Shown here piece after piece: positions 1 through 64,000 of a DNA stretch of 64,000 nucleotides; position 1 is the stretch's first letter; each line of letters begins with the position of its first letter. The stretch lies in IMG/VR virus record IMGVR_UViG_3300020050_015720. One strand, given 5' to 3'. This DNA comes from a virus (lineage: Duplodnaviria; Heunggongvirae; Uroviricota; Caudoviricetes). The notes under the pieces are model-generated. The model did not search any database. It worked only from the letters and a program-made list of their open reading frames with translations, and was not told where the DNA came from. The translations under genes were made by a program, and so were the position numbers.

Positions 1-21
1 GTTTCAAAGGAGAACTTTAGG

Positions 22-366
22 ATGATACTAAAACTCTACCACAACCTAATTTATCGAGAAATTGTTGCCGGAAGAATTGTTAAATTTCCACACGGAGCAG
101 GGCTCTTAGGACTATTTAAACGCCCCACAGGAAAGATAATAGACTATGGACATTACCAAAAGACAGGAGAAAAACGAATTAGAATAAATTTACATTCCGA
201 TGAGTATAGGATAGCCGCAAAGTGGTTCCACGTTAGCCCTGTCTATCTAAGAGGAGTAATGTCCTTCAAATTAAAAAGGCAACAAGCTCGCCGGCTAGCT
301 CAACACATAAAAACAGAGCCAGCAGTTTATAAATATAGAAGTTTAAATGAAAAGCATATCAATTAA
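22..366 (+). CDS. hypothetical protein (114 aa)
   Basis: ATG at 22 and TAA at 364-366. Its end overlaps the start of the next ORF. No recognisable motifs. Confidence 0.5.
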   Translation: MILKLYHNLIYREIVAGRIVKFPHGAGLLGLFKRPTGKIIDYGHYQKTGEKRIRINLHSDEYRIAAKWFHVSPVYLRGVMSFKLKRQQARRLAQHIKTEPAVYKYRSLNEKHIN

Positions 367-1048
367 ATCCGTACTTGCTGGCCTCAGTCTTTCCGTTGAT
401 GATCGTTATTGGAACGAAGCTGTCATGTTAGAGCATGCCGCAAAAGGATTTTTACAAATGAATCTGGAGAGTCGCTACGAAGCTAAGACAGCTATTGTTG
501 AGGTTGTTGAACACAAAGCAACAGCTCCAGAAGATTTAAAGTATATTGTACAAGTACTCGCCATTGATAACAACAAGACATATCGTATGCGCGCTTCTAC
601 AAATACATTTATAACAGGAATATGTGTTGACAGCACACTATGTCTTTGCAATAACTGTACCTATGAATTTCACCTTTCTCCTGGTGGTGTGTTTACTACC
701 AGCTTTAGAACAGGCCAATTGAATATAAGTTATTTAGCAGTACCTGTTGATGAAGATGGTGATATTCTTATCCCTGACGATGAGACTGTAAAAGAGGCCC
801 TTACTCATTATGTACTATATAAGTATTGGCTAGCTAAGGATCTTATGAAAGAAGAGGGAGCCACGCAGAGGGTCAGTTTCCATCTTAGTATGTGGTCAAC
901 TTTATCTAAGAAGGCCCTTAACTTAAATCTTCCTGAACTATCTGTGTTAGAAAATATAAAGAATCAACGTAATAGATTAGTCCCAAGAACACGTGCCTTT
1001 GATGGATTGTTTGGAGGACTAAGTAGTCAAGAAAACATAGGATTCTAA
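347..1048 (+). CDS. hypothetical protein (233 aa)
   Basis: Intact ORF. Its TAA stop overlaps the ATG of the next gene (TAATG at 1046-1050), which suggests translational coupling. Confidence 0.6.
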   Translation: MKSISIKSVLAGLSLSVDDRYWNEAVMLEHAAKGFLQMNLESRYEAKTAIVEVVEHKATAPEDLKYIVQVLAIDNNKTYRMRASTNTFITGICVDSTLCLCNNCTYEFHLSPGGVFTTSFRTGQLNISYLAVPVDEDGDILIPDDETVKEALTHYVLYKYWLAKDLMKEEGATQRVSFHLSMWSTLSKKALNLNLPELSVLENIKNQRNRLVPRTRAFDGLFGGLSSQENIGF

Positions 1049-4000
1049 TGGATAATTTATTTACAAAAGGCCTAAATACGGACTCTCACCCAAAATACCA
1101 AGAAGAAGGATCTTATAGGTTTGCTCTAAATGCGGTGTTAGAAACAACACAAGGCCATCTTCCTTCCATTTCTAGTGAGGGTGGCAACCAAACTTGTTCT
1201 ACAAATTTTACTGGCAACAAGAAGATAATAGGTTCTGTAGTTAACGAACATGATGATGTCATACTGTTTCTATATGATCCATTAGGTCAACACGAAATAG
1301 GAAAATTAAACTCAGCCACCTGCACTTACTCAACGATACTTGTTGCACCATGCCTTAATTTTTCTGATAAGTATCCTATTAATGCTCTGTATAAGCTAAG
1401 AAATGGGTGTGATCCTTATGTCTATTTTACTGATAATCTCAATACCTATAAAGTTCTAAATCTAAACGATCTAGCACAATACGAATTAGGAGGCAGTTAC
1501 TGGTGCCCAAAGATGGATTTCTCAAGAGATTACTTTATCCCTTGCTTTAATCTTTATAAAGGTACAAATAATTCCGGCATAGTTGAGAATGCTGGTGGAC
1601 AGCTGGAGATAGGTGTCTACTATTTTGCAGTTAGGTTTCTGGATAAATATCAGAATGCTACTCAATGGACCATTGTTACCAGACCAGTAGCAATAGCAGA
1701 TGAACCCTATAGTTATCATGGGAGCACAGCAACTGTACACATGTATGATGGGGGATCAAATGTTCCTGATTCAGACTCCTTTGTAAATAAGACCAATAAG
1801 GCCATCTCCTTTCTAATAACAGGTACAGACGATTTATTTGATTACTATCAAGTGGCTGTTATAAAGAGAACAAGCGATGAAGGAGAAATATCTGGTGTTG
1901 ATCTGCTCCATGCTCAGCCATGGATAAATGGTACAGCCGCTTTTCTGTACACAGGAACAGCTGACCAGATAAAAGGTAGTGTGACACTTGACGATATTTT
2001 AACTCCAACAGTTCAAATAAAGAAGATCGCTGCTCAGGCTTTCAACATGGACAAGCTGTTTTTAGCTAATTCATCCAAAGCTTACAAAGACTACACAAAG
2101 TACCAACAGTACGCTTCAAAAATAAAAACTGAATTTGTAAAGGTACCCATCAACTCTGATATAGATTATAAGAGCAAGATGGCTAGTTATTATTTTGGTG
2201 ACGGCTCTCTTATGGAAGATGAGGTCTACCCTTTCGGTATTGTGTATGTATTTAATACTGGCCAAGTTTCTCCTGTATTTTATACTGTAGGAAGAGCCGC
2301 TGATACAGACATTCCAGTAAATGGAGCTAACCCATATATAGGCACTGGGGGTGTTGCTACAGACGGCAATCCTTGGGATACTGGCATAAAGCAATATGGA
2401 GAGGGTACAGTCTATACTAGACGTTGGGGACAAATATCAACAGCTGTACAATATGGTGCCTCCTTAACAGGACTTCCTGGTTACCATGAATCAGATAATG
2501 CTACTTATCCTGACATACCAACTTGTGAGAATTTACCAGATGGTTACTGGGGAAGAGATTGGCACGGGAATCTTATAGTTCCAGGTGTTACCAAAATTCG
2601 TCATCATAGGATGCCAGGAGCCGAAATACGTGATGGGTCTGGCGCTGCTCATGCTTTTAGGACAGGTGTTAAGTTTTCTAATGTAGAATACCCACCAGAC
2701 GAAGACATCGTAGGGCACTACTTTGTTTATGGCGACAGAACCTTTGAGAGGCGAATACTAGCTAAAGGAGCATTTATTCCAATTCATGCAGCCTCAAGAC
2801 AAATACTTGATCCTTCAACAATATCTGCTACTGATTATGTGCCCACTCCACCACCAAATACAGGGATACTGAAAAATCTCTACGCCTTTATTAGCAGTGA
2901 TCTTTTACTAAATGAAAAGACAAGCAGAGGTGCATTTGTTAAGTTCGAGAAGATATATTGGGATGCAAATCAAATAGCAAATAATGCTTCTATTACAGAA
3001 AGCGCACTCCTCCCAGATCAGTTATTAGATCAAAATGATGACTATAAAGGAACAGTAGATGCTACCACACAATTTAGGTATTTCACTAAATATGCTAATC
3101 CCAGTGAAACTAATCTAGTGCATGGTATGCGTACCGACATCTTTTGTCCAAAGTCCTACCCTGGTGCACAAGAAGGCAATGAAGTGTATGAGCCCTTATC
3201 AAATACTACATTTATAAATAATAGTATTAATACAAATTTCCAGATAATTAGGCTCAATTCTGGCGCGGCAGACATACAAAATGCTGGCGGAAATTGGAGA
3301 GGAAAATTGTACTACGGGGCCATCTATCAATATTTAGATGTGTTCTCTAATTTATTTGAGGTGAAATTTAAACGCTTCAATAACTGCTTATCAAGAGAAG
3401 GTTCTCCTAGTACCTCATTTACTATGTATGGTGGAGACACAGCGGTTTCTCGGTTAACAATGGTTGACTTTAACTACCGTCAAACAGGCGTACCGGTATC
3501 AGGAGATAGTGATTCTGTGACTTTGGATTATGATACATATATGTTGTCTTTTCCGACACAAGATACTCTGCTTAATTATGGATTTAGACACGGTTCAAAA
3601 ACTAAAAGAGAATTCTCCTATTTCCAACCAAAGAATCCGCCTACGATGGCTGACAATCACCAGCATCTAAGGAATTACATGAAGCAGAAACTGTACAAGG
3701 TCGCAGACAAATCTTTCGCCTACTACCAAGAACGGTACCTATATAATAAATCTTATTCTTTCTTAGATGGGATAGTTTATGATTACCCAGTTCAATTTGC
3801 TTATCAATATTGTAATATGTGTATTGAAGATCACCCATATAGGGTATATGCTTCCCAAACAGATGACAATGAGAGTTTAGTTGATAAGAGTAGAATTATC
3901 TTACAGAACAATTATACGGATAAAATAGGGGGAACAACTGGACCAATAACTGACTTATTTGTAAATTTTGGACATCTGTATGCTACAACAACTAGATCAG

Positions 4001-5268
4001 TTTACAGATTACCAGTGCAAGCGCAAACGCTCCAAACTGATATAGATAATGTGTATCTAGGTACTGGGGAAGTTTTTAGTATTCCGCCAATGGAACTAAA
4101 GAACAGTAATCTTGCCTTTGCAGGTCAGGCTCATTTCTCATCTAGAATTCAAACGGAATATGGTGCTGCTTATATTGATTCCTTAGCAGGGCACCCGCTA
4201 TTATTAACAGATAAATTAAATGATTTATCCTTAACTGGAATACGTAATTTCTGGCAAGAAAATGGAGAACTTGAGTATCTAAAGCAATTTGAACAGTTAA
4301 CTAGCACAAAGTTTCCATATATATCTCACGCTTCACCTATAGGGGTTGGTTATAAAACAACCTATGATCCCAGGCATAAACGATTATTAGTGCATAAACG
4401 AGATTTCAAGTTGCTACCCCAGTGGACAAACAAGTTTGTTTACTACCCAACTGAATATGATCTTCCAGCACTGTATACTACGCCCGATAAGATATTCTTT
4501 AATGGTCACTCCTTTTACTATAATCCCCCAACAGGTACCGTTCAAAGTATTGATTTTGATAACATAACTTATTTTGAGAATAGGTCTTTCACGTTATCTT
4601 ATTCTTTTATAAATCAACACTGGACTTCTTTTCATTCGTATCTTCCAAACTATTTGTTTGCTAATTCAAATACCTTCTTTACACAAAATGGGTATAGTGA
4701 AATCTACAAACACTTCGATGGAAATTATCAGACTTTTTACGGGTCTAAGTATCCGCACATAATTGATCTCATAGCATTTAAGAATCCAAAAGAAGCGAAG
4801 GTAACCTCTTCAATAGACTACTCGGCTCTGGCTTTTGCAAAAAGTGCAAATACATTAGAAGAATATCCTACGAAAGAAACGTATAATACGGTAATATTCT
4901 ATAACAGCACCCAAAGCACAGGAGAACAACCACTTGTCCAGCCTTCTAATTTTCAGATGGATACTTTTAATACTCTATCCCTAGTCAAGAAGACCGATAG
5001 ACAGTGGCGAATAAACAACATACGCGACCTGACAATCGCACCTACGCAACCTATTTGGGATTCTTCTTGGGCAGCCAAAGCGTCCTCTCCGTTTTCCTAC
5101 ATAGATAAGACAGTTAATTTTTCAAATATAGATCCAGAAAAACCTTTATATGAAAGTGCCCGTTTTAGGGATTACTACTTAGGCGTAAGGTTGTTCTTTA
5201 ATCCAACAGAAGACAGTAAAATAACTTTAGACCTGCTTGGAACACAAATTCAAAATCGTAATCGATAA
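1048..5268 (+). CDS. large virion/tail-associated protein (1406 aa), function unknown
   Basis: 4.2-kb uninterrupted ORF in the structural-type block. TAA stop is fused to the next ATG (TAATG at 5266-5270). No catalytic motif recognised. Confidence 0.75.
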   Translation: MDNLFTKGLNTDSHPKYQEEGSYRFALNAVLETTQGHLPSISSEGGNQTCSTNFTGNKKIIGSVVNEHDDVILFLYDPLGQHEIGKLNSATCTYSTILVAPCLNFSDKYPINALYKLRNGCDPYVYFTDNLNTYKVLNLNDLAQYELGGSYWCPKMDFSRDYFIPCFNLYKGTNNSGIVENAGGQLEIGVYYFAVRFLDKYQNATQWTIVTRPVAIADEPYSYHGSTATVHMYDGGSNVPDSDSFVNKTNKAISFLITGTDDLFDYYQVAVIKRTSDEGEISGVDLLHAQPWINGTAAFLYTGTADQIKGSVTLDDILTPTVQIKKIAAQAFNMDKLFLANSSKAYKDYTKYQQYASKIKTEFVKVPINSDIDYKSKMASYYFGDGSLMEDEVYPFGIVYVFNTGQVSPVFYTVGRAADTDIPVNGANPYIGTGGVATDGNPWDTGIKQYGEGTVYTRRWGQISTAVQYGASLTGLPGYHESDNATYPDIPTCENLPDGYWGRDWHGNLIVPGVTKIRHHRMPGAEIRDGSGAAHAFRTGVKFSNVEYPPDEDIVGHYFVYGDRTFERRILAKGAFIPIHAASRQILDPSTISATDYVPTPPPNTGILKNLYAFISSDLLLNEKTSRGAFVKFEKIYWDANQIANNASITESALLPDQLLDQNDDYKGTVDATTQFRYFTKYANPSETNLVHGMRTDIFCPKSYPGAQEGNEVYEPLSNTTFINNSINTNFQIIRLNSGAADIQNAGGNWRGKLYYGAIYQYLDVFSNLFEVKFKRFNNCLSREGSPSTSFTMYGGDTAVSRLTMVDFNYRQTGVPVSGDSDSVTLDYDTYMLSFPTQDTLLNYGFRHGSKTKREFSYFQPKNPPTMADNHQHLRNYMKQKLYKVADKSFAYYQERYLYNKSYSFLDGIVYDYPVQFAYQYCNMCIEDHPYRVYASQTDDNESLVDKSRIILQNNYTDKIGGTTGPITDLFVNFGHLYATTTRSVYRLPVQAQTLQTDIDNVYLGTGEVFSIPPMELKNSNLAFAGQAHFSSRIQTEYGAAYIDSLAGHPLLLTDKLNDLSLTGIRNFWQENGELEYLKQFEQLTSTKFPYISHASPIGVGYKTTYDPRHKRLLVHKRDFKLLPQWTNKFVYYPTEYDLPALYTTPDKIFFNGHSFYYNPPTGTVQSIDFDNITYFENRSFTLSYSFINQHWTSFHSYLPNYLFANSNTFFTQNGYSEIYKHFDGNYQTFYGSKYPHIIDLIAFKNPKEAKVTSSIDYSALAFAKSANTLEEYPTKETYNTVIFYNSTQSTGEQPLVQPSNFQMDTFNTLSLVKKTDRQWRINNIRDLTIAPTQPIWDSSWAAKASSPFSYIDKTVNFSNIDPEKPLYESARFRDYYLGVRLFFNPTEDSKITLDLLGTQIQNRNR

Positions 5269-7604
5269 TGAAAACAAAATCCCAAAAAAAGTATTTTTCA
5301 GGCGGAGCCATTAGCTCTGTAGTTGGGCTAGCAACAAATGCGGCTCAACAATTATTAAGTGTAAGTAGCTATGAAGCTGACGCAACACAAGATCCCTATA
5401 AAGTGAATTGGGGTAATGTTGTGTCTTCTGGGGGTATAGGGCTAATCTCCGAACTTCTTAAAAAGAAGAAAGATGAAAGACAACGTGCTCAGATGGTGTT
5501 ATCAGCTACTCCAGGAGCATACGCAAATGGCGGCCCTGTTTATAGTCCCACTATCACCAATCCTCCCGTTTCAAATGTTACACCGACTGTTTTGCCTACG
5601 CAACAATTGAGTGTACTAAAAGCCTTAGCTGGCCAATTACAAGTACCAATAGTTAAAAAGGATGGTGTATCAGGACACAGTAAAAGTAAATCAACTTTTA
5701 GAGAAAGGGCATATGGAGGCACATTAGATCAGCAACTTTCTTCTTCGGCAGCTTTAGTTCAGGGGAATCCTCAACAAACTGATGGCAATTACTATCCTAA
5801 TCTAAATGCTAAATTAGACCATGGAGAGGTTGTAAAGAATAGATTTGTTTATTCAAATCAACTAACAGATCCAAAGACAAATCAATCATTTGCATCTTTG
5901 GCTAGATTATCAGAGATTGCTGCGGGTAAAGCAGAGAAAAGACTCAAGACAACTCCTTATGATAGTATTAGTCAGAATACTATCGAATTTGCAAACAAGG
6001 CTAATCAAAGTTTAGCTACCACTCAAGAAGGTGTGGCTACAAGATTAGGGCTAAGAGGAAACACTAATAGTTATGCTACTGGTGGCTCCATGGACCCAGG
6101 TGATCCAGAGTATCCTTATATGCTTGTGGAACAACAAAAAATGGGGTTATATACTGGAACGTATTATGATCCGTATAAGGATCGTTTTTTAAAACGGGAT
6201 AGAATGGGAGAATATTCAGTTATTAGTGATGCTGGCCCAGGATTACGCAATAAGCTTTCAAGAGAAGCGATTGAACAACACAAGCAACAATATCCCATTA
6301 ATGCTCAAACACAACAAGCAAACACACCAAGAATTCAAGAGACAGTAGATTTTGAAGATCCAATAGCCAATTTAAAGAATCAACTTTCTTTTCAGTTGAG
6401 AGAACCAAGTGGACCAACAACTCAATATTCAGCAAAAAATCCCGCTCCATATATGCTTTTAGAAAAACGTAATATGGGATTATATACTGGAAATTACTAT
6501 GATCCATATACAGACAGATTCTTAAAAAGAGATCGCATGGGTGAGTATACCGTTATAGAAGACGCAGGACCAGGGTTACGAAATAAATTAACCCGCGCAG
6601 CTATTGAACAACATAAGCGTAAGTATCCTATGGAGAACACCCAAACTCAATGGAAAGTGCCTGATGGAACGCCCCTGAGTAGCCAAGGGCAGATTATTCC
6701 TTACACTAAAGAGCCTGTAAGTCCTAATACTAAAGAGCCTGTAAGTCCTAATACTAAAGAGCCTGTAAAAGGGGCATTACCACCTACACAAAGTGCAGGG
6801 GTTCCACAATCAAGAGCAAGAACTGTAGCAGAAACTTCTCCAACGAATACTCTTGGAGTACTGCGCATGCCAGAAGATGGAAGTTTGGATAATAGTTTCG
6901 GTGTATTAGCTAATCAAGGATTGACTATGAAACCTTTTGAGCAACTGCCGATGACTAATAATAAAGTAGAGAGTATTAGAAAAACTACAGGAACAACTAG
7001 TCCTTCTGAGGCTTTAAAAGTTCTAAACAATACAACTGGACAACAGAGGACTGGTAGTGCGGAGAAATTTACAATAGGGGATGCTCTTCAGGGTGTTGAA
7101 GTATTGTCTAAATTTGGGCAATTGGCAGGAGGACCAGAAAGAGAAAAAGCTCAATATGACAATACTTCTATAACTAAAAGGATATTTGATCCTACGCAGG
7201 CTTTGTATCAAAGTCAAAGAAGTTTCGATAGCAGTCTTTCTAATTTAGAGGTTGGGTCTATAAATGCTCGTAGGGCTTTTGCTAATAGAATGCTAGCAAC
7301 AAAATTAAATGCTGACAGTCAGGTAGCAACTCAGTACGGACAAATGAATGCTGGAGCTCTAACTGAATATGAGGGAAGAATCTCCAATCAGAGGCGCTAC
7401 AATAATGCGCAAACACAAACAACAAATGAAATAAATGCTCAAAATAGAGCTGCCTATAAGGAAGCCGTAGATACAGCATTTAATTCTCTTGGTAATTTTG
7501 GACAGGCCTTAAATGCCAAGAAACAGGGATACGATCAAATTCAAATTCTAAAAAGTATGTATCCAGAAGTTTATAAAAGAATCCTAAACAGTTATGGCGG
7601 TTAA
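5268..7604 (+). CDS. 778-aa Ser/Thr/Gln/Asn-rich virion-associated protein with internal duplications
   Basis: Intact ORF with low-complexity composition. Contains a duplicated ~62-aa module and a PVSPNTKE tandem repeat. TAA stop. Confidence 0.75.
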   Translation: MKTKSQKKYFSGGAISSVVGLATNAAQQLLSVSSYEADATQDPYKVNWGNVVSSGGIGLISELLKKKKDERQRAQMVLSATPGAYANGGPVYSPTITNPPVSNVTPTVLPTQQLSVLKALAGQLQVPIVKKDGVSGHSKSKSTFRERAYGGTLDQQLSSSAALVQGNPQQTDGNYYPNLNAKLDHGEVVKNRFVYSNQLTDPKTNQSFASLARLSEIAAGKAEKRLKTTPYDSISQNTIEFANKANQSLATTQEGVATRLGLRGNTNSYATGGSMDPGDPEYPYMLVEQQKMGLYTGTYYDPYKDRFLKRDRMGEYSVISDAGPGLRNKLSREAIEQHKQQYPINAQTQQANTPRIQETVDFEDPIANLKNQLSFQLREPSGPTTQYSAKNPAPYMLLEKRNMGLYTGNYYDPYTDRFLKRDRMGEYTVIEDAGPGLRNKLTRAAIEQHKRKYPMENTQTQWKVPDGTPLSSQGQIIPYTKEPVSPNTKEPVSPNTKEPVKGALPPTQSAGVPQSRARTVAETSPTNTLGVLRMPEDGSLDNSFGVLANQGLTMKPFEQLPMTNNKVESIRKTTGTTSPSEALKVLNNTTGQQRTGSAEKFTIGDALQGVEVLSKFGQLAGGPEREKAQYDNTSITKRIFDPTQALYQSQRSFDSSLSNLEVGSINARRAFANRMLATKLNADSQVATQYGQMNAGALTEYEGRISNQRRYNNAQTQTTNEINAQNRAAYKEAVDTAFNSLGNFGQALNAKKQGYDQIQILKSMYPEVYKRILNSYGG
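6115..6637 (+). repeat. diverged tandem duplication of a ~62-aa module (PYML..MGLYTG.YYDPY.DRFLKRDRMGEY.VI.DAGPGLRNKL.R.AIEQHK..YP). Copies lie at about 6115-6300 and 6452-6637.
   Basis: The two peptide segments are roughly 75% identical when read directly from the translation of ORF 5268..7604. Confidence 0.7.
6704..6768 (+). repeat. 24-nt tandem repeat (tactaaagagcctgtaagtcctaa), about 2.7 copies, encoding (T)KEPVSPN repeats
   Basis: Near-perfect direct repeats visible in the sequence at 6704-6727, 6728-6751 and a partial copy at 6752-6768. Confidence 0.85.
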
Positions 7605-53843: not shown

Positions 53844-53869
53844 ATAGATTTTAGTTTAATTGTTAACAA

Positions 53870-54065: not shown

Positions 54066-54068
54066 ATC

Positions 54069-55478: not shown

Positions 55479-55542
55479 TTTTAATTGGTTGAAGGGGGCA
55501 GAGGGTTACTCCGCCCCCATGAACAATAATGTTTCGTTTCTT

Positions 55543-57675: not shown

Positions 57676-58709
57676 AATTTTGGGATTTCTGTTGCATTTG
57701 CAACTTTTTGAACGTGGTCCTTTAACAGCTGTGAAAGATTCATGGCTGTATTTCGCATACGGTCAGTGTAGACACCCGTTGTTGGGATCCCCTTTATGTT
57801 TTCAAGAGCGCTCTTAGCCTTTCCAAAATGAGCAATAAAATTTGGATCGTTTCGTTCGAAGGCAAATTTTGCTTGAAGAGCTAGACTTTCGGCTTCTTCC
57901 AAGTCTCTTACAAAAGGAACCAAAGCCATCATCTTCTTTAGCTCCTCATACACTTCTGGCTTCTCATGCATGTCATCGAAAGTCTCAACACCACTTAAAC
58001 CTTCAAACTTGATAAGGTCTTGGAAGGCTAGCGCTTCCCTCGGTGCCATTGGGTAATTCATTTGATGGCATTTTTCAAGCATAGCCGCCACAAGTTTGTC
58101 AGGTCGACCTAAATGGGTTAAATAAGCATCCCAGGTGGTAATGTCATACTTGCTCCATTCTACATGAGCTCTGTGTGGAAAACGTTTCAAAAGCGCTTTG
58201 TAACTGTCGACCTCACCCGCCCATTCAACTGGATTGTGATTTGTGCAGATGAACATCGACTGTAATTTTACTGGGGAACAAACATTGTTGATGCAAAGTA
58301 CTTTTGACATCAATGGCTGCTTCATGGTTTCGAGCACGTACGGGGGAGCGTCCAAGCCTTCCTCCAATATGGCGTACTCCTTCTCCATATATATCGTATG
58401 CTCCAATTGGTAGTTGATAGTACCGTCTTCTCGGTACCGTTTCAAGTCCAAGGCACCAACAAAGGGTTCTGTAGGCATTTCCATGCCGCCGTTTGTCTGG
58501 TACACCTGCTGGTAGAACGCAACCTCACCCAAATAGAGTTTCAGGGCCGTTTCGACAATACCAGATTTTGCATGGCCAGGTGGACCATACAGAATACAGT
58601 TTTGTTTTAGTGCCAAGGCACGTATGACCGCATTTATGGCAGGGTCACTTTGGAAGTACCTCTGCTGTAATTCAGCTTTCACTTCCGTTAATTCCATGTT
58701 TATCTTCAT
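57672..58709 (-). CDS. MoxR-like AAA+ ATPase (345 aa)
   Basis: Walker A ILYGPPGHAKSG, a Walker B/DExx-like region (AILEEGLDAPP), and FICTNHNP, which resembles the MoxR 'ATQNP' sensor motif. Confidence 0.7.
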   Translation of the reverse strand: MKINMELTEVKAELQQRYFQSDPAINAVIRALALKQNCILYGPPGHAKSGIVETALKLYLGEVAFYQQVYQTNGGMEMPTEPFVGALDLKRYREDGTINYQLEHTIYMEKEYAILEEGLDAPPYVLETMKQPLMSKVLCINNVCSPVKLQSMFICTNHNPVEWAGEVDSYKALLKRFPHRAHVEWSKYDITTWDAYLTHLGRPDKLVAAMLEKCHQMNYPMAPREALAFQDLIKFEGLSGVETFDDMHEKPEVYEELKKMMALVPFVRDLEEAESLALQAKFAFERNDPNFIAHFGKAKSALENIKGIPTTGVYTDRMRNTAMNLSQLLKDHVQKVANATEIPKL

Positions 58710-58723
58710 GTTTTAAAATTTAG

Positions 58724-58789
58724 GGGTGTGGGACGGATTCGAACCTTCTATAAGTATATAATACCTATAATCACCATTAGAACCACACC
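58724..58789 (-). tRNA. tRNA-like element (about 66 nt) with canonical T-arm and acceptor stem but a compressed D/anticodon region
   Basis: Minus strand reads GGTGTGG...GAAGG TTCGAAT CCGTC CCACACC C. The acceptor halves are perfectly complementary. The middle 32 nt are AT-rich, and the only 5-bp stem I could place gives an anticodon loop ATTATAT (UAU?). No UCA anticodon is present. Confidence 0.35.
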
Positions 58790-58808
58790 TTAGGGGGATT
58801 TTGTAAGC

Positions 58809-59612
58809 CTAATCATACTTAGTTAGGTTATACCGTTTGATTACACTAATTAGTGTATTAGCATAACTTTTATCCGTTGCATAACCTACTTGCTTTAATC
58901 CTTGGGCCCAACGAACGTAGTCGCGTCCGTATTTCTTTAATTTTGCATATCGTCCCGATGACAACAGCTTTGAATGGGCTTCCCAGCTTTGTGCAGGAGA
59001 TTTGAACTTCAAAAAGAAGTCTTTGTGGGTATCGTCCTTATGATTGGTACAATGCCCCTTACCACACTTTTTTGAAAAACACTTCATGCCAAAATGATTG
59101 TTGTTTTGCACCGCTAATTTACTAGTTCCTGCTCTCGATTCAATCAGACCTTGTGCTAAACTGATACTTGCGGGTACTCCATGTTTTCTCCAACCAGCCT
59201 GTGCCGCAGCTTTGTACTTCTGAATATACGCCTGCGCCTGCGTTTTGTAAGCGGTTAAATTCTTTGCCGGAGCTGGTTCTGGTGGATTTTCATCCAGAGT
59301 TTCTTTCTCTCCTACAAATACCGAAGTTTGCGGAATTTCGGGTACAATCTCTTCTTCTGCGTCAGCCTTCTCACTTGAAGCTTGAACGACAGGTACAATG
59401 ATTGTTTTTGGTGGGTTGGTATTTATACTCACCCAAGCACCTATGGTCATAGCGCACATAAGGGTTAATCCAAGGAACACGCCAACGTTGGCCTTTTGAA
59501 TGCCCGACAATCTTTGAAAGATTGCAACAGTAGCATACAACCAATGGACAAACGTCGGTACTGCCTTTTCTTCGGTTGATTTCGACGACGTAATTTTGAT
59601 AATTTGTTTCAT
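58809..59612 (-). CDS. membrane-anchored glucosaminidase-family peptidoglycan hydrolase (267 aa)
   Basis: N-terminal TM segment, an Ala/Pro-rich linker, and a C-terminal domain with LAQGLIESRAGTSKLAVQNNNHFGMK plus a Cys/His cluster. TAG stop. Confidence 0.65.
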   Translation of the reverse strand: MKQIIKITSSKSTEEKAVPTFVHWLYATVAIFQRLSGIQKANVGVFLGLTLMCAMTIGAWVSINTNPPKTIIVPVVQASSEKADAEEEIVPEIPQTSVFVGEKETLDENPPEPAPAKNLTAYKTQAQAYIQKYKAAAQAGWRKHGVPASISLAQGLIESRAGTSKLAVQNNNHFGMKCFSKKCGKGHCTNHKDDTHKDFFLKFKSPAQSWEAHSKLLSSGRYAKLKKYGRDYVRWAQGLKQVGYATDKSYANTLISVIKRYNLTKYD

Positions 59613-59760
59613 ATGTAAAATTTAAAGATGAAAAGAATGAGTAGACTCAAGAACTTCCCTAGTGTGGACAAAACTAGCGCCGAAGTAAATTAAGTACTAC
59701 CCTAAGAACACAAACATCTTTATGCTTGAATTCTCGATAGTCCGGTTGATTACAGTATTT

Positions 59761-60045
59761 TTAACTTCCAAGTTTATCCACCGCCTCTTCTTTCTCGAGG
59801 GCCTTTAGTAACTCAAGGTAATTTTGGTAACGGTCATATGCCGCCTCCACAGAGGACAGAAAGGTGGATTTGTTTTGGTCGAGGGCAATCTCTAGTTGAT
59901 AGAGCGCCTTCTTTTTTGCCAATTGTTTTTTCGTGAGACGAGGCCTCAGTCCTCTAAGGATAAGCGTAATTCCAACAACAAAACAAACGGCAAGAATGCC
60001 GACCATGGCGGGATTTTCAATTATTGTCTGTGGAATCTGTTCCAT
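59761..60045 (-). CDS. small single-pass membrane protein (94 aa), possibly holin/spanin-like
   Basis: N-terminal TM helix (MVGILAVCFVVGITLIL) followed by a charged coiled-coil tail. Sits next to the hydrolase. Confidence 0.35.
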   Translation of the reverse strand: MEQIPQTIIENPAMVGILAVCFVVGITLILRGLRPRLTKKQLAKKKALYQLEIALDQNKSTFLSSVEAAYDRYQNYLELLKALEKEEAVDKLGS

Positions 60046-60475
60046 AGTTGAAATTTAGACCGAACCGTGTCACCTCGATGAGGGCGGTTAAGCCGGTTAA
60101 AAGATCGAATTTACCGCTGGGAGCGTAAAAAGCTACCCAGGCATCAATGACATCAGCGTGTTCACTCTCAGGAAAGTATTTTCCTACGGTGATGAATTCT
60201 TCGGCAGGTGCAGCCAAAATCCTGGCTTTTACCTCAGAAACCTCGTCAATGAGGTCTTGCATTTGGCGGGGTACGCGTACTGCGAGCGAGTTTAACTCTT
60301 TTTTTGCCTCATTTATCGCTTTAGACACGTCTTTTGTGCACGTTCTGTTTGCGCAGGCATATTGAATGTTAAGCACCAAACGATTACGCAGATACGTAAT
60401 GTTTCTGAGTGGTTCTTGAATGAAGTTTTGGGGTTGCTTAGCTCCCCAAGCTGTTATGAGGCTTGTCTCATACAT
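60017..60475 (-). CDS. hypothetical protein (152 aa)
   Basis: Intact ORF. Confidence 0.45.
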   Translation of the reverse strand: MYETSLITAWGAKQPQNFIQEPLRNITYLRNRLVLNIQYACANRTCTKDVSKAINEAKKELNSLAVRVPRQMQDLIDEVSEVKARILAAPAEEFITVGKYFPESEHADVIDAWVAFYAPSGKFDLLTGLTALIEVTRFGLNFNYGTDSTDNN

Positions 60476-60896
60476 GGTAGTAGATTTACGGTGTAAAGGT
60501 TAAAAGTTGAAAATTTGGCAACACCTCAATTTATTTCGTATCTTTGTGTATTGGCCAGGAAAGAGAGCAATCCTGGATCAGCCAAGCAGTAGGTTTGAAT
60601 AGCCTAACACGAGGTGGCTCAGAAGTCGGATTTCTCTTTTTTTGAGGTTTTCTCCGATACCAATAAGAACTAGATAAAGAATATAAATTTGTAGTGATCT
60701 GTAGAAGAGGTAGGTTGTATTACCTAAAAACTCTCCTAGTACGTATTCAATCGTGGCGTTCAGCTGTCTTACGATAAAGCAGTTTCCTTCTACAGTGGGT
60801 TTACTATCGCACTGCTACAAAAACAAATCTTTATTATGAAACAAACAGTCAATCCGACAGGTAGCCTTGGAATGGGCTAGGGGATTGGTATGCACA

Positions 60897-61244
60897 TCAG
60901 GCAACTGATAGGTTCAACACCTTATCAGCATAATCTACCGCAGCTTCGCGGTCTATAGCATAGAATGATTTTGGGTTTGACCAACTAGTGTTAATCAATA
61001 CCTCCTCAGTCGTAATACACCAAAAATTATAGTCAGCTCCATTAGAAGCTTCAAATTTCCGCTGTAGTTGGTCAAAGTCAATCAAGATACCCTTGTCTAG
61101 CCAGTAATGGATAGAGTTCCAGATTAACCTGGAAGCTGCGTCATTCATCATTTTTAGCACTACAATAGCGCCAAGAACAGTGAATGTATTCTTCTGGTAG
61201 ATCTGGCTTAAAGCTTCGGTTCTGACTTTTTGTAGGGCATCCAT
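60897..61244 (-). CDS. hypothetical protein (115 aa)
   Basis: Intact ORF. Confidence 0.45.
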   Translation of the reverse strand: MDALQKVRTEALSQIYQKNTFTVLGAIVVLKMMNDAASRLIWNSIHYWLDKGILIDFDQLQRKFEASNGADYNFWCITTEEVLINTSWSNPKSFYAIDREAAVDYADKVLNLSVA

Positions 61245-61900
61245 AGTACATTAGTGTATAGGCGTGAAATTTGTTGGAGGATGTCTACAGCGTAAGGGTT
61301 ATCAGAGCCCCTTAATTCGCGTTCTAAGACACTTTTATAGGTGGCAAGGGTATCTACCGCTGAATAGTCCAAAAGTAGCTCAGAAACGAAACTACGCATC
61401 TCTGGAGTGAAATTAGCAATGAGTTGTACCCTGGTAACTGTAAAAGCATATTTGGCGGCCCTAATATTGAAGTTTAGGTGCTTATTTGCGAAGCGTTCAA
61501 GCGTCACAACATCCTTATTAAAAGGAGATTTGGTACTTTCTCGAATATAGGTATCGAGTAGATTATACCGTAAATCCTCCATTTTAATGAAGGCAGCTTC
61601 AGATGTTAGTGTTGCATACAGAAGACCTCCAGTACCTTCTGGATAGCTTATGTACAAGTACGGAGCTGGTTGCCCATTTACTGTTGTGTACAACTTAGGT
61701 AGCCGGATGTAACCAGAAGGTACTGAGGTTGTGGCTAAGTTATACAGCATGTAGATGGCAAAGGGCATGAATGGGATGAGTATTATTAATATTGTGCTCA
61801 TAAGTTGTTCAAATATTTGCGGTAATTGAAAAGAAATCTTCCTAGAACACTGGCGTAATGATGCCCAAAAGGATACGTTCCAAACGCTTGGGATGCCCAT
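61208..61900 (-). CDS. hypothetical protein (230 aa)
   Basis: Intact ORF. Its 5' end overlaps the next ORF, so the start is probably internal. Confidence 0.4.
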   Translation of the reverse strand: MGIPSVWNVSFWASLRQCSRKISFQLPQIFEQLMSTILIILIPFMPFAIYMLYNLATTSVPSGYIRLPKLYTTVNGQPAPYLYISYPEGTGGLLYATLTSEAAFIKMEDLRYNLLDTYIRESTKSPFNKDVVTLERFANKHLNFNIRAAKYAFTVTRVQLIANFTPEMRSFVSELLLDYSAVDTLATYKSVLERELRGSDNPYAVDILQQISRLYTNVLWMPYKKSEPKL

Positions 61901-62541
61901 TCAGCATAAGTTGCCCTAGTACCAGACATCTGGACACGATGCTTTCGCATAATATGTACCAGATGTACGCGATCTTTTGGATCAAATAACTCTGGAAGTT
62001 GAAGAGCATCCATAGACCAGTCGAAAAATGGTCGGTTCGCATCAGGCTTAAAGGCAGTGTCTTTAAACAATCCAAAGATCGCAAAACGTTTTGGTAGAAC
62101 CGTGTTATAATAGTACATGTCTAGAATTAGTACTTTTACTTCGGTTGGAAGCATCCCCCTGAGTACTTTGTTCCGTTTATTGTATAGGTAGTGCCCATTA
62201 GGCCCTTGTGCAATATAACGTGTTTCATCCAGTTTTATCCACTTATGATAATCGTTTGCGTAACGATCAACAAGTAATTGGAAAATCCAGAAGAAGCTAA
62301 TTACTGGCCAAAGCAGCAATAGTATAGTTGCGCCAGCAATATCTGAAATGGCAAATGGCTTGTAGAACCAATTTGCTCCGAAATTCAGAATTGCCTCCTT
62401 GTACAATCGGGCGAAATTCACAAAGCTTTCACCAGGACATCTTAGAGTAGGGTCGTGTATTCTGTCACCTATTACAACAAGAGAGGCCATCAGTAATAGA
62501 CCAAATGACGCGTATACTAACAATATCAGTGCTAAAATCAT
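61798..62541 (-). CDS. integral membrane protein (247 aa)
   Basis: Two to three hydrophobic helices at the N-terminus. Confidence 0.5.
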   Translation of the reverse strand: MILALILLVYASFGLLLMASLVVIGDRIHDPTLRCPGESFVNFARLYKEAILNFGANWFYKPFAISDIAGATILLLLWPVISFFWIFQLLVDRYANDYHKWIKLDETRYIAQGPNGHYLYNKRNKVLRGMLPTEVKVLILDMYYYNTVLPKRFAIFGLFKDTAFKPDANRPFFDWSMDALQLPELFDPKDRVHLVHIMRKHRVQMSGTRATYAEWASQAFGTYPFGHHYASVLGRFLFNYRKYLNNL

Positions 62542-62559
62542 TTTAAAGAATTTAAAAGG

Positions 62560-62802
62560 TTAACTCAAAAATCTCCAGAGAACATAAAGCGCAAATACAG
62601 CCAATAAAATTACAAGAAAGGATACTTTTCCTTGATTTTGTTGATTCGCGTAATGTGTCTTTGGATCTCTTGAGCCTGAATTGATTGTGTTTCGCATGTA
62701 CCCTCGGGTTCTTAGCCTATACGAGTGATAGGCTAAGAAAACACCGAAAGAAAGGAACAATGCTAAAACACCGACAGCAAATGCGTCAGGTTGTTGTTCC
62801 AT
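62560..62802 (-). CDS. small membrane protein (80 aa)
   Basis: Two hydrophobic helices. Confidence 0.4.
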   Translation of the reverse strand: MEQQPDAFAVGVLALFLSFGVFLAYHSYRLRTRGYMRNTINSGSRDPKTHYANQQNQGKVSFLVILLAVFALYVLWRFLS

Positions 62803-63257
62803 GGTTCAAAAGCGATTTTTAAGTATGGATTACCCATCGAAAGGATGGTGTTTCCGCACTGGGTGACAGTAAGATGGTATTCTCCAAGCCTTTCATAGCA
62901 AACAACTTGGTACTCTGGTGAATTATCACACGATCCATAATTGTACCAGTACTTATGAATACCAATGGCACGATCATATGCTTCACCGAGCAATGATGGC
63001 TCGGCGATGGAAGTCTTGTACAGGTACAGATCCATTGAACCTGTCTGTACGTCGAGTGCAAACAAGGTATTTTGGATGACAGGTTGTGGAAGATTCGCAG
63101 CACGCTGCGTCCATGGAATACGGTAGGCTTCCCGCAGAGAACTTTGTTCTGGATTCATTCCGGTAATTGAATAGTCCACCGAATAGGTGAGACTTTGTGC
63201 GGGCAGGAAGGCAGTGAGCATTAGGCCCAATAGGCAAAAGATGAATTTTTGTTGCAT
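62763..63257 (-). CDS. secreted protein with signal peptide (164 aa)
   Basis: Signal-peptide-like N-terminus MQQKFIFCLLGLMLTAFLPAQS. Its ATG overlaps the TAA of the upstream gene. Confidence 0.5.
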   Translation of the reverse strand: MQQKFIFCLLGLMLTAFLPAQSLTYSVDYSITGMNPEQSSLREAYRIPWTQRAANLPQPVIQNTLFALDVQTGSMDLYLYKTSIAEPSLLGEAYDRAIGIHKYWYNYGSCDNSPEYQVVCYERLGEYHLTVTQCGNTILSMGNPYLKIAFEPWNNNLTHLLSVF

Positions 63258-63646
63258 TATAAGGATGGTTGTGATTTGTACTTCTTCACCAAGGCTTCTG
63301 CCTCAGTGGTAAGTTGTTTGATTGTTTGCTGTTCTTTGAACTGTTTTTCTCTTTGGGCCTTTCGGCGTTTACGAGCGGCATTTCTGTCAGCTCGTTCAGT
63401 GGAGGATAGTCTTTTCAGACTTCGGCGCTTTTGTTCAGCTTGCTGTAAGATTACAGCGTTTTCACAGGTATTTCTCGCTTCTAAAGCTTTTTCAGCCTTA
63501 GCTTTGAGAGTCGTAACCAGGTCTGCAATCTCAAGTTGAGAGACACGCTTTCCTTTTGATAACGGAAGGACGACTTTATTGTAATAAACACTCTCCGCGT
63601 CCTTTTGCAGGAGAGGGCATTTTGAAAACTTTGGGTATTTAATCAT
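63257..63646 (-). CDS. basic coiled-coil protein (129 aa)
   Basis: Lys/Arg-rich helical C-terminal half. TAA stop. Confidence 0.5.
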   Translation of the reverse strand: MIKYPKFSKCPLLQKDAESVYYNKVVLPLSKGKRVSQLEIADLVTTLKAKAEKALEARNTCENAVILQQAEQKRRSLKRLSSTERADRNAARKRRKAQREKQFKEQQTIKQLTTEAEALVKKYKSQPSL

Positions 63647-63661
63647 TGATGTGTTGTTTAC

Positions 63662-63698
63662 AAAGAAAAAGAGGCCCTATCATTGCGACAGAGCCTCT
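63662..63698 (-). terminator. candidate intrinsic terminator (minus strand)
   Basis: A 6-bp stem (AGAGGC / GCCTCT) with a 17-nt loop. On the minus strand it is followed by TTTTTCTTTG. Confidence 0.5.
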
Positions 63699-63724
63699 AA
63701 ACATGACCACCTTCAATTTTTCAA

Positions 63725-63940
63725 TCACTTTTTTGGGCCTCCTCGTTTCTTAGCTTTTGGAGATCGCAGGTGTTTTCGGTTTGTGTTTTTCCAAGCTTCT
63801 CGCAGTTCTAATCGAACCATGTTTTTGGCAATATTAGCTTGAAATTTACGATTAGCCTGTTGTTCCCAAGCTTCAATTGCTTCCTGGGTCTGTTCAATTC
63901 TTGGGTTTTCCCAAATAGCTCTGTAGCGGAGATCGCGCAT
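63725..63940 (-). CDS. small basic protein (71 aa)
   Basis: Ends at TGA immediately before the terminator hairpin. Lys/Arg-rich C-terminus. Confidence 0.45.
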   Translation of the reverse strand: MRDLRYRAIWENPRIEQTQEAIEAWEQQANRKFQANIAKNMVRLELREAWKNTNRKHLRSPKAKKRGGPKK

Positions 63941-64000
63941 ATCATGTTTCGTTAAAGGTTAAAGAAAAATCCTGGGCAAGTTTCCCTACCCAGGAAGTGT

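What the first reader, a model, noticed from the sequence alone, without database searches (positions are those of the whole stretch)
1..64000. TGA usage is confined to the minus-strand (replication/accessory) block; the 29.7-kb plus-strand block has no TGA at all
The eight plus-strand genes (about 9,900 codons, including a 4095-aa ORF) contain no in-frame TGA and all terminate with TAA or TAG. Minus-strand genes use TGA for a substantial share of presumed Trp positions. In recoded crAss-like and other phages described so far, the reassigned stop is enriched in late or structural genes. Here the DNA polymerase, primase and helicases need read-through instead, so the described model of a 'suppressor switches on late genes' does not fit this genome. 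It may indicate a host that natively reads TGA as sense, or a different regulatory logic in which structural genes are kept decodable without the suppressor.
Basis: partly seen in the sequence, partly recalled or inferred. Interest (0 to 1): 0.85.

Follow-up and report, generated by a model that had tools for sequence, protein, structure and literature searches.

The report
Phage uses TGA three different ways
This ~102-kb crAss-like phage brings its own tRNA that reads the stop codon TGA as tryptophan, yet uses TGA as a stop in its first genes, as tryptophan in its enzymes, and almost never in its virion proteins, which reverses the gene bias reported for other recoded phages.

Summary
The seven complete plus-strand ORFs (9,743 codons, 69 TGG) have no in-frame TGA and end in TAA or TAG. 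However, the last giant gene really starts at ATG 25222 and carries one conserved in-frame TGA at codon 11 (25252..25254).

The minus strand is not uniform. TGA encodes Trp only in the replication block (29.7-49.4 kb; 20-25 TGA against 54 TGG). In the upstream block (49.7-64 kb and beyond) it is a stop: 13 of 33 genes, five with ATGA start/stop overlaps.

I rebuilt the ~102-kb genome from near-identical metagenome contigs.
- Portal, capsid, tail, ring and cargo genes (24 genes, 15,908 codons) hold 1 TGA against 125 TGG, and none ends in TGA.
- The large terminase needs two TGA read-throughs, and homing-endonuclease ORFs also carry TGA.
- The phage encodes a tRNA-Trp-like UCA suppressor that ARAGORN missed. 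In one strain it is split by a group I intron.

A host that natively reads TGA is not supported. The early-to-later code switch still fits. What differs is which genes carry the recoded codon: enzymes, with a bias towards the 5' end of genes, rather than virion proteins. Relatives show the same trend more weakly. I rate it a new variant of a known kind, of moderate interest.

The parts
1..366 (+). 3' end of a 148-aa virion-module gene; no TGA; stop TAA
   Evidence: L001 9574..10020 is the full gene.
347..1048 (+). crAss tail ring protein 1 (233 aa); 0 TGA, 3 TGG; stop TAA
   Evidence: Pfam PF24228, E = 1.2e-28; codon counts.
1048..5268 (+). Virion structural protein (1406 aa); 0 TGA, 15 TGG; stop TAA
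   Evidence: phrog_15100, E = 4e-92. tblastn finds Flavobacterium and Cellulophaga phage structural proteins. Counts.
5268..7604 (+). Cargo-protein-1-like gene (778 aa), length-variable between strains (660/778/917 aa); 0 TGA; stop TAA
   Evidence: Weak PF25725 hit; strain comparison.
7594..9492 (+). 632-aa virion-block gene; 0 TGA; stop TAA
9495..21782 (+). Giant 4095-aa gene with an AAA_30 domain; 0 TGA, 22 TGG; stop TAG
21776..25222 (+). 1148-aa gene; 0 TGA; stop TAA followed directly by TGA
25222..29745 (+). Re-annotated last giant gene (~1507 aa). It starts at ATG 25222 in a TAATG overlap, not at GTG 25411. Stop TAG.
   Evidence: The N-terminal 63 aa align with the homologue in relative L136.
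25252..25254 (+). The only sense TGA of the plus block: codon 11 of the last giant gene (NSAEwKELV), at the same site in the relative (NSQEwKDLV)
29716..49356 (-). Replication/enzyme block: 25 ORFs, 5,808 codons. TGA is read as Trp: 25 in-frame TGAs (20 clearly internal) against 54 TGG. All ORFs end in TAA or TAG.
   Evidence: Pfam domains span the TGA sites.
46636..48522 (-). Family A DNA polymerase (628 aa). TGA at aa 8, 30, 259, 626 (48499-48501, 48433-48435, 47746-47748, 46645-46647).
   Evidence: PF00476, E = 2.9e-63, over residues 254-620, plus PF01612. Sites aa 8, 259 and 626 align with Trp (TGG) in relative L012, and aa 30 aligns with a TGA.
43652..44836 (-). SF2 helicase (394 aa); TGA at aa 15 and 61
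   Evidence: ResIII and Helicase_C domains; positions.
39979..40977 (-). DnaB-like helicase (332 aa); TGA at aa 45 and 288
   Evidence: PF03796 over residues 28-266; positions.
37084..38037 (-). Toprim primase (317 aa); TGA at aa 49 and 183
   Evidence: Weak Toprim hits. The aa 49 TGA is at the same site in the relative (CSFwIGN and CSFwKSK), and aa 183 aligns with TGG.
33913..34938 (-). PD-(D/E)XK exonuclease-like protein (341 aa); TGA at aa 44 and 122
   Evidence: PF12684 over residues 19-252.
48754..49356 (-). First TGA-sense gene of the minus unit: a 200-aa protein with an N-terminal membrane helix and H-x6-D / H-x-H motifs, a possible LAS-type peptidase or endolysin. TGA at aa 70 and 137.
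   Evidence: Sequence read directly. No Pfam hit, so the function is inferred.
34826..35311 (-). 161-aa ORF (weak DUF1064 hit) with four in-frame TGAs and no TGG
   Evidence: The homologue in the relative also has 4 TGAs.
39363..39691 (-). Group I intron splitting a P-loop ATPase gene (exons 39976..39656 and 39358..39011, each with one TGA)
   Evidence: Rfam RF00028, 64.4 bits, E = 7.9e-14.
49707..64000 (-). Upstream ('early', inferred) part of the minus unit. TGA is used as a terminator and never as an internal codon. With the 6 kb beyond the window: 33 genes, 75 TGG, stops 15 TAA / 13 TGA / 5 TAG. Includes MoxR-like AAA (57672..58709), a vWA-like protein (56545..57675), glucosaminidases and an AAA ATPase.
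   Evidence: The C-termini match the relative's TAA/TAG ends.
57672..57675 (-). ATGA overlap: TGA stop of the MoxR-like gene and ATG of the next gene. The same motif occurs at 56545-56548, 54855-54858 and 51665-51668.

Best explanation
The window is about 63% of a ~102-kb crAss-like phage genome. The phage reassigns UGA to tryptophan with its own tRNA-Trp-like UCA suppressor. That gene lies outside the window, 4.5 kb upstream of the terminase gene.

Suppression competes with the host's release factor 2 (inferred), so UGA is an unreliable stop and a costly sense codon. The genome reflects this in three ways.

1. The roughly 20 kb of small genes at the start of the minus-strand unit are translated before the suppressor accumulates (timing inferred). 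They use TGA freely as a stop, often with TAA or TAG close behind.
2. Enzymes needed in small amounts carry in-frame TGA. These are PolA, primase, helicases, nucleases, a putative peptidase, the large terminase and homing endonucleases. TGA sits preferentially near the 5' end of these genes, so failed read-through wastes little. Full-length product depends on the suppressor.
3. Proteins made in bulk, or made very long, as virion components have been kept almost free of TGA in both roles. These include portal, capsid, tail, ring, cargo and giant proteins. As a stop it would be read through when they are made. As a sense codon it would lower yield and produce truncated subunits.

Shown: TGA = Trp, the suppressor gene, and the three usage classes with their statistics. 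Inferred: the timing of the blocks, incomplete suppression, and selection on cost.
For: TGA encodes Trp:
- In TerL and portal alignments of about 25 relatives each, TGA columns hold W in 111 and 169 of the other residues. The remainder are mostly F, Y and other hydrophobic residues in TerL; portal's non-W minority also includes Q.
- PolA, primase and TerL sites align with TGG or with a shared TGA in relatives.
- Pfam and PHROG matches run across TGA sites. TerL matches phrog_6681 at E = 3.5e-101 in one stretch, residues 5-728.

Suppressor:
- L089 4904..5000 folds as a cloverleaf with anticodon loop CUUCAAA, G73 and an encoded CCA.
- Its acceptor stem (AGGGGUG/CACCCUU) and anticodon arm match the design of E. 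coli tRNA-Trp, whose sequence I verified.
- Orthologous tRNA(UCA) genes lie upstream of TerL in relatives.

Three usage classes:
- Virion module: 1 TGA against 125 TGG, and 0 of 24 genes stop at TGA.
- Replication block: 20-25 TGA against 54 TGG.
- Early block: 0 internal TGA against 75 TGG, and 13 of 33 genes stop at TGA, five in ATGA overlaps.
- Fisher's tests: virion against replication p = 5e-9; TGA stops in the plus unit (1/50) against the early block (13/33) p = 1e-5.

TGA is costly:
- Its share of Trp codons is 0.27-0.32 even in the replication block, where other NNA codons have shares of 0.58-0.66.
- TGA is 5'-biased. Its median relative position is 0.35, against 0.64 for TGG (Mann-Whitney p = 0.0025). 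Twelve of 28 TGAs lie in the first 61 codons, against 9 of 77 TGGs (p = 0.0015).
- The only TGA in the 29.7-kb block is at codon 11.

Clade trend:
- In 18 recoded loci, TGA/TGG is 43/89 in TerL, 27/350 in virion genes and 1/84 in the capsid gene (p = 1e-11).

Strand bias is ruled out. TerL, the HNH ORFs and codon 11 of the giant gene are on the plus strand, and the early block on the minus strand has no sense TGA.
Against: - There are no expression or proteomic data. 'Early', 'middle' and 'late' are inferred from gene order, polarity and function.
- The 85-kb relative is not TGA-free in its virion genes: tail fibres 10 TGA/18 TGG, ring protein 1 has 1, the 1406-aa homologue 2/21, and the last giant gene 1/14. 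Avoidance is therefore quantitative and lineage-dependent. The near-zero value in this phage could partly reflect history, such as a low overall level of recoding or exchange of tail genes.
- The small non-virion plus-strand genes (26 genes, 39 TGG) also lack TGA. Expression level alone does not obviously explain this.
- The 5'-bias test used my own start-codon calls and a cut-off chosen after the fact. The clade-level tests count related sequences as independent.
- The tRNA scores below Rfam's gathering thresholds and was missed by ARAGORN. Its function and charging are not demonstrated.
Confidence: 0.55

Rival explanations
1. Deliberate gating. The in-frame TGAs are regulatory switches. They hold back replication enzymes, the terminase, a lysis-type peptidase and the last giant protein until the suppressor tRNA is expressed. 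Virion genes are left ungated. This is the Borges-type code-switch model with a different set of gated genes.
For: - TGA lies at identical sites in relatives with 45-63% protein identity: PolA aa 30, primase aa 49, codon 11 of the giant gene, and TerL alignment columns 26 and 258.
- TGAs cluster near the 5' ends of genes.
- The first TGA-sense gene follows directly after the last TGA-stop gene, at about 49.4-49.7 kb.
- TerL is the most recoded late gene across the clade.
Against: - Shared sites can be simple inheritance, or repeated TGG-to-TGA change at conserved Trp codons.
- Close relatives have TerL without any TGA (L093, 84% identical), so the gate is dispensable.
- The TGA share is below the neutral NNA share, as expected for a tolerated but costly codon.
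- This reading overlaps with the best explanation and is not exclusive of it.
Confidence: 0.3
2. The host natively decodes UGA as an amino acid (code 4 or 25). The phage simply mirrors its host, and the plus block lacks TGA by chance or by history.
For: - ARAGORN finds no tRNA in the window or in the composite genome.
- Only 35% of TGA-recoded phages have a detectable suppressor, according to Borges et al..
Against: - A tRNA(UCA) gene is present, and relatives have orthologues.
- Thirteen of 33 early genes end in TGA, five of them in ATGA overlaps.
- TGA accounts for 0.8% of Trp codons in 15.9k virion codons and about 30% elsewhere, against roughly 60% expected if it were neutral.
- Many clade members, some from the same samples, use the standard code.
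- The nearest cultured relatives infect Flavobacterium and Cellulophaga. By general knowledge these use code 11.
Confidence: 0.03
3. Mosaic history or mutational bias. The replication block was acquired from a recoded phage, or strand-specific G-to-A pressure created TGA on one strand only.
For: - The strand split seen inside the window.
- Tail and fibre genes are known to exchange between phages. Fibre-domain homologues are widespread.
Against: - Plus-orientation TerL, the HNH ORFs and codon 11 of the giant gene carry TGA, while the minus-strand early block has none.
- NNA/NNG ratios and GC content are similar in all classes.
- The replication and virion modules are collinear on the same 85-kb contig in the relative, which shows the same trend.
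Confidence: 0.07
4. Artefact. The TGAs are sequencing or assembly errors, pseudogenes, or programmed frameshift or selenocysteine sites.
For: None beyond the fragmented code-11 ORFs.
Against: - Contigs 99-100% identical to the window occur in several independent metagenomes.
- TGA aligns with conserved Trp in dozens of relatives.
- The reading frame is kept across every TGA.
Confidence: 0.01

Closest known systems
Stop-codon-recoded gut phages with a mid-infection code switch (Borges et al. 2021/2022: Agate, Jade, crAss-like and others)
   Same: A phage that probably infects a standard-code host. It encodes a suppressor tRNA. One set of genes is compatible with the standard code and another needs read-through. 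TGA is abandoned as a terminator in genes expressed after the switch.
   Different: [quoted passage not shown] Here replication enzymes and the terminase are recoded and the virion module is 0.8% TGA. Here too the early genes still use TGA heavily as a stop (39%), rather than TGA stops having been lost before recoding.
TGA-to-Trp Zeta crAss-like phages (Yutin et al. 2021; phage Lera, PMC12386605)
   Same: crAss-like genome architecture, TGA read as Trp, a tRNA(UCA), TGA in TerL and helicase, and many introns and homing endonucleases.
   Different: [quoted passage not shown] The equivalents here (ring protein 1 and the 1406-aa protein) have none. This phage belongs to an environmental lineage whose nearest cultured relatives are Flavobacterium and Cellulophaga phages.
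Codon-usage tuning to expression level and to phage tRNAs (for example T4 late genes)
   Same: A codon that is decoded inefficiently is avoided in highly expressed late genes and tolerated in low-abundance enzymes.
   Different: Here the rare codon is a stop codon whose failure truncates the protein. The same codon is a genuine terminator in another gene class of the same genome.
Group I introns in bacterial tRNA anticodon loops (cyanobacterial tRNA-Leu(UAA) type; named from general knowledge)
   Same: A group I intron interrupts the anticodon loop of a tRNA gene (L081 14057..14249; RF00028, 50 bits).
   Different: The host gene is a phage opal-suppressor tRNA. The intron carries an HNH ORF and is present or absent between strains that are 99.9% identical.

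Membership tests
TGA-to-Trp recoded (code 4-like) phage with its own suppressor | In-frame TGA in conserved genes at positions where homologues have Trp | tested here: met
   W is by far the commonest residue aligned with TGA. Domains span the TGA sites.
TGA-to-Trp recoded (code 4-like) phage with its own suppressor | Phage-encoded tRNA with anticodon UCA | tested here: met
   L089 4904..5000: cloverleaf, loop CUUCAAA, G73, CCA end, Trp-like acceptor stem. Orthologues are present in relatives. Its scores are below Rfam's gathering thresholds, and its function is not shown.
TGA-to-Trp recoded (code 4-like) phage with its own suppressor | TGA not used as a terminator in genes expressed under the alternative code | tested here: met
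   None of the 24 virion genes and none of the 25 replication-block ORFs needs TGA as its stop. The early block is the exception, at 13 of 33.
Late-gene code-switch pattern (Borges/Yutin) | Recoded codons enriched in structural and lysis genes relative to replication genes | tested here: not met
   Virion genes have 1 TGA/125 TGG and the replication block 20/54, p = 5e-9. A possible lysis-type peptidase (48754..49356) does carry 2 TGAs, but its function is only inferred.
Late-gene code-switch pattern (Borges/Yutin) | A block of genes compatible with the standard code that is expressed first | tested here: inconclusive
   The 49.7-64 kb block uses TGA only as a stop. This fits the model, but the expression timing is inferred from position only.
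Crassvirales / crAss-like phages | crAss-type capsid, portal, TerL and ring proteins, plus a block of giant cargo genes | tested here: met
   PF24228 and PF25702 for the ring proteins, and PF23898 for the capsid. phrog_6681 (TerL), phrog_6547 (portal) and phrog_11589 (major head protein). The virion RNA polymerase was not specifically identified.
Phage of a host with a native UGA-sense code (e.g. Mollicutes) | TGA used genome-wide at or above the neutral NNA share and never as a stop | tested here: not met
   The TGA share is 0-0.32 against an NNA share of about 0.6. Thirteen TGA stops occur, some in ATGA overlaps.

The most novel reading that the evidence does not exclude
UGA acts here as a graded translational attenuator rather than a timing switch. 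A partially efficient phage tRNA-Trp(UCA) is itself controlled in some strains by a self-splicing intron. It sets a fixed, low yield for enzymes (polymerase, primase, helicases, terminase and the last injected giant protein) relative to virion proteins. TGA is placed near the 5' end of genes so that aborted products are short. One genome would thus use one codon as a stop, as an attenuated Trp and as a forbidden codon, depending on the required stoichiometry.
Probability: 0.2. Interest if true: 0.75.

Novelty: new variant of a known kind. Interest (0 to 1): 0.55.

Why it matters
Stop-codon recoding in phages is currently explained as a way to hold back structural and lysis genes until late in infection. 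This phage, and more weakly its clade, has the opposite gene bias while keeping the other hallmarks: its own suppressor and a first gene block compatible with the standard code. This suggests that where recoded codons accumulate is set by how well each gene tolerates incomplete read-through, and not only by a late-gene switch.

The genome offers three internal controls for one codon (stop, sense, avoided). The competing ideas could therefore be tested by transcriptomics, ribosome profiling or proteomics once a host is found.

There are practical consequences too. Single-code gene callers mis-annotate such genomes whichever code they use. ARAGORN missed the suppressor, so reports of recoded phages 'without a suppressor' may be undercounting.

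Tried and rejected
- Megablast of the window against GenBank phages found nothing.
- The single metagenome-contig scan, with a tail-fibre protein as query, returned only distant fibre-domain hits and none of the phage's own contigs.
- A viral-contig scan with the 4095-aa protein found nothing.
Protein ids from the listing of cluster members were accepted, which allowed me to walk around the genome. One id, P0006, was not on record.
- ARAGORN found no tRNA in any piece of this genome. Relaxed ARAGORN settings gave only implausible calls.
- I first took the tRNA-like element at L081 16246..16352 for the suppressor. It has a perfect acceptor stem and T arm and shares CTTCA with the relatives' tRNAs. 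However, its anticodon arm (GCCCU/UCAUACC/AGGGU) does not present UCA canonically. I dropped it once the real tRNA(UCA) was found at L089 4904..5000. Its role remains unknown.
- The tRNA-like hit at L005 3158..3222 has a CAU anticodon loop and a poor acceptor stem, so it is not a suppressor.
- I rejected strand or mutational bias, a native code-4 host, and sequencing error (see the rival explanations).
- An 'assembly-poison only' explanation is weakened, because the small non-virion plus-strand genes also avoid TGA and the relative tolerates TGA in its tail fibres.
- The promoter/terminator scan at the boundary between TGA-stop and TGA-sense genes (48.3-51.3 kb) gave nothing above the shuffled background.
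- I did not identify the sample environments or the host.

Full report
**What the window is.** The plus strand from 1 to 29,745 carries a crAss-like virion block. It comprises tail ring protein 1 (PF24228, E = 1.2e-28), a 1406-aa virion structural protein (phrog_15100, E = 4e-92), a cargo-1-like protein, and giant genes of 4095, 1148 and about 1500 aa. The minus strand from 29,716 to 64,000 carries small genes followed by a replication module. The window has no near relative among GenBank phages. The nearest cultured relatives, by a structural protein at 28% identity, are Flavobacterium and Cellulophaga phages.

**Checking the observation in the window.** The seven complete plus-strand ORFs (9,743 codons) contain 69 TGG and no in-frame TGA. 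They end in TAA five times and TAG twice. On the minus strand, reading TGA as sense restores several genes:
- a 628-aa family A polymerase
- an SF2 helicase
- a DnaB-like helicase
- a Toprim primase
- a PD-(D/E)XK nuclease

Pfam domains run across the TGA sites. Two corrections are needed.

*First correction.* The last giant gene does not start at GTG 25411. An ATG at 25222 overlaps the preceding stop (TAATG). The 63 residues it adds are conserved in a relative that is 45% identical (MICPNKNSAEwKELV against MCPNKNSQEwKDLV). They contain TGA at codon 11 (25252..25254), at the same site in both genomes. So the plus block has one sense TGA among 70 Trp codons.

*Second correction.* The minus strand is heterogeneous. 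Sense TGAs occur only between 29,716 and 49,356 (25 TGAs, 20 of them clearly internal, against 54 TGG). Upstream of 49.7 kb, TGA appears only as the terminator of standard-code ORFs. Four of these sit in ATGA stop/start overlaps inside the window.

**Rebuilding the rest of the genome.** Exact-protein look-ups recovered contigs 99-100% identical to the window from several JGI, ENA and Logan samples. One is a 102,154-nt contig. Together they close a circular map.

A divergent intergenic region lies about 6 kb beyond window position 64,000. From there the minus unit runs through about 20 kb of small genes (the 'early' block, a label inferred from position) into the replication block.

The plus unit runs in this order:
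- small genes
- a tmRNA
- a tRNA
- a GroEL-type chaperonin (Cpn60)
- TerL
- portal
- capsid
- tail fibres
- ring proteins
- the giant genes of the window

PHROG hits support these assignments: TerL E = 3.5e-101, portal 9e-108, major head protein 6e-60 and chaperonin 7e-132.

**Census of TGA use across the genome**:

| Gene class | Genes | Codons | Sense TGA | TGG | Stops |
|---|---|---|---|---|---|
| Virion module (portal to last giant gene) | 24 | 15,908 | 1 | 125 | 17 TAA, 7 TAG, 0 TGA |
| Small plus-unit genes plus chaperonin | 26 | 2,967 | 0 in called ORFs (one or two ambiguous) | 39 | 19 TAA, 6 TAG, 1 TGA |
| TerL | 1 | 748 | 2 | 7 | TAA |
| Replication block | 25 | 5,808 | 20-25 | 54 | TAA or TAG only |
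| Early block | 33 | 5,511 | 0 | 75 | 15 TAA, 13 TGA, 5 TAG |

- Two homing-endonuclease ORFs in plus orientation carry 4 and 2 TGAs.
- Fisher's test of virion genes against the replication block gives p = 5e-9.
- Fisher's test of TGA stops in the plus unit (1/50) against the early block (13/33) gives p = 1e-5.

The quantitative contrast nevertheless stands.

**TGA means tryptophan.** A scan with TerL found 40 related loci at 44-100% identity. In alignments of TerL and portal, columns holding TGA in one genome hold W in most of the others, and several of these columns are invariant W. In PolA, sites aa 8, 259 and 626 align with TGG in the 85-kb relative, and aa 30 aligns with a TGA. The first primase TGA is shared with the relative and the second aligns with TGG.

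**The suppressor tRNA.** ARAGORN finds no tRNA anywhere in this genome. It does find tRNA(UCA) genes 2.4-3.4 kb upstream of TerL in six relatives. Following an intron hit in relative L100 led to L089 4904..5000. This element has these features:
- a seven-pair acceptor stem, AGGGGUG/CACCCUU
- a D arm
- an anticodon arm CUAGU-CUUCAAA-ACUAG, giving anticodon UCA
- a long variable arm
- a T arm
- discriminator base G73 and an encoded CCA end

The best Rfam model is tRNA-Sec at 26.7 bits, below its gathering threshold.

The acceptor stem and anticodon arm closely match the design of E. coli tRNA-Trp, which has AGGGGCG...CGCCCCUGCCA and loop CUCCAAA. I verified that sequence. That A1-U72 and G73 are Trp identity elements rests on my general knowledge.

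In the strain identical to the window's right end (L081), the same gene is interrupted after CUUCAAA by a 718-nt group I intron (RF00028, 50 bits). The intron carries an HNH ORF.

**What the pattern implies.** A host that natively reads UGA is very unlikely, for four reasons:
- the phage carries its own suppressor;
- the early block uses TGA stops, some in ATGA overlaps;
- standard-code relatives occur in the same samples;
- TGA is under-used even where it is allowed, at 0.27-0.32 of Trp codons against 0.58-0.66 for other NNA codons in the same block.

Strand or mutational bias is excluded by TerL, the HNH ORFs and codon 11 on the plus strand, and by the TGA-free coding of the early block on the minus strand.

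Virion genes never terminate in TGA. This argues that they are translated while TGA is being read through, so the early-to-later code switch proposed for recoded phages still fits. The difference lies in which genes hold the recoded codon. My preferred reading is that suppression is incomplete. TGA is then tolerated in low-abundance enzymes and purged from abundant or very long virion proteins.

Two observations support this:
- TGA sits nearer the 5' end of genes than TGG does. Median relative positions are 0.35 and 0.64 (Mann-Whitney p = 0.0025), and 12 of 28 TGAs against 9 of 77 TGGs lie in the first 61 codons.
- The sole TGA in 29.7 kb of giant genes is at codon 11.

A deliberate gating role for these TGAs remains possible. 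It is favoured by sites shared across distant relatives.

**Relatives and limits.** Across 18 recoded loci the TGA/TGG counts are 43/89 in TerL, 27/350 in virion genes and 1/84 in the capsid gene (p = 1e-11). These loci are not phylogenetically independent.

The 85-kb relative has the same layout: early block, replication block and TerL with five TGAs. It is not TGA-free in virion genes, however:
- tail fibres: 10 TGA against 18 TGG
- ring protein 1: 1 TGA
- the 1406-aa homologue: 2 against 21
- the last giant gene: 1 against 14
- head genes: 0 against 28

Pooling its enzymes against its virion genes still gives p = 8e-4. The near-total avoidance seen in this window is therefore the extreme of a trend across the clade, not a fixed rule.

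Timing, suppression efficiency and tRNA charging are all inferred. The host is unknown.

**Comparison with the literature.** Yutin et al. (PMC7886860) report recoding in crAss-like phages 'mostly in late genes', with suppressors sometimes undetectable. Borges et al. report structural and lysis genes recoded in all clades, and replication genes variably so. Lera, a TGA-recoded Zeta crAss-like phage, has TGA in its muzzle and ring proteins, TerL, RNA polymerase and helicase. Two further literature searches found no description of a recoded phage with virion genes spared and replication genes recoded. I therefore class this as a new variant of a known kind.

Noticed in passing
L089 4904..5000; L081 14040..14880: The opal-suppressor tRNA gene is intron-less in one strain. 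In a 99.9%-identical strain it is split in its anticodon loop by a 718-nt group I intron carrying an HNH ORF. Relative L100 has the same split gene. ARAGORN misses both forms.
   Followed up: yes
L081 13119..13380 (= L089 3992..4252), outside the window: The phage encodes a tmRNA (Rfam 76 bits, E = 1e-28) with an unusually long predicted tag peptide. An HNH-type ORF with four in-frame TGAs is inserted at its 3' end, followed by a duplicated copy of the tmRNA 3' end (about L081 13920..13945). The relative L120 also has a tmRNA, next to its tRNA(UCA).
   Followed up: partly
L081 16246..16352 (= L089 ~6397..6503): A second tRNA-like element of 107 nt sits in a 600-nt non-coding gap. It has a perfect 7-bp acceptor stem and T arm, a long extra arm, and an anticodon arm GCCCU/UCAUACC/AGGGU in which UCA is displaced. 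Its function is unknown.
   Followed up: partly
L005 3158..3222 (-), about 6.8 kb beyond the window end: A degenerate tRNA-like sequence (Rfam tRNA, 29 bits) with a Met-type CUCAUAU anticodon loop, no D arm and three mismatches in the acceptor stem.
   Followed up: partly
window 39363..39691 (-): A group I intron (64.4 bits, E = 7.9e-14) splits a P-loop (Sak4/AAA-like) ATPase gene into exons 39976..39656 and 39358..39011.
   Followed up: partly
L085 877..4225: In a strain about 95% identical, the capsid gene is in three pieces. The intervening sequences carry an HNH ORF (two TGAs) and a LAGLIDADG ORF, and there is a group I intron hit at 3682..3824. The 102-kb strain has an intact 498-aa capsid gene.
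   Followed up: partly
window 5268..7604 (+): The cargo-1-like gene varies in length between near-identical strains (660, 778 and 917 aa). A non-aligning central segment is flanked by sequence that is 98-99% identical.
   Followed up: no
L005 6825..6881 (+), outside the window: A borderline pistol ribozyme hit (35.6 bits against a gathering threshold of 34.5) lies between two small early-block genes.
   Followed up: no
L089 7921..9525: The phage encodes a GroEL-type chaperonin (534 aa; phrog_5725, E = 7e-132) just upstream of TerL. It is conserved across the clade.
   Followed up: no
window 49707..64000 (-) and relative L012: TGA terminators of early-block genes are often followed closely by TAA or TAG: TGA-TAG and TGA-TAG-TAG in the relative, and 1-6 codons downstream in several genes here. 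These look like back-up stops against later read-through.
   Followed up: partly
L081 10300..10600: An uncalled small ORF with a T5orf172/GIY-YIG-like C-terminal motif (...GEWFTL...) sits in a 770-nt gap. It is followed by about 400 nt of apparently structured non-coding sequence with no Rfam match.
   Followed up: no
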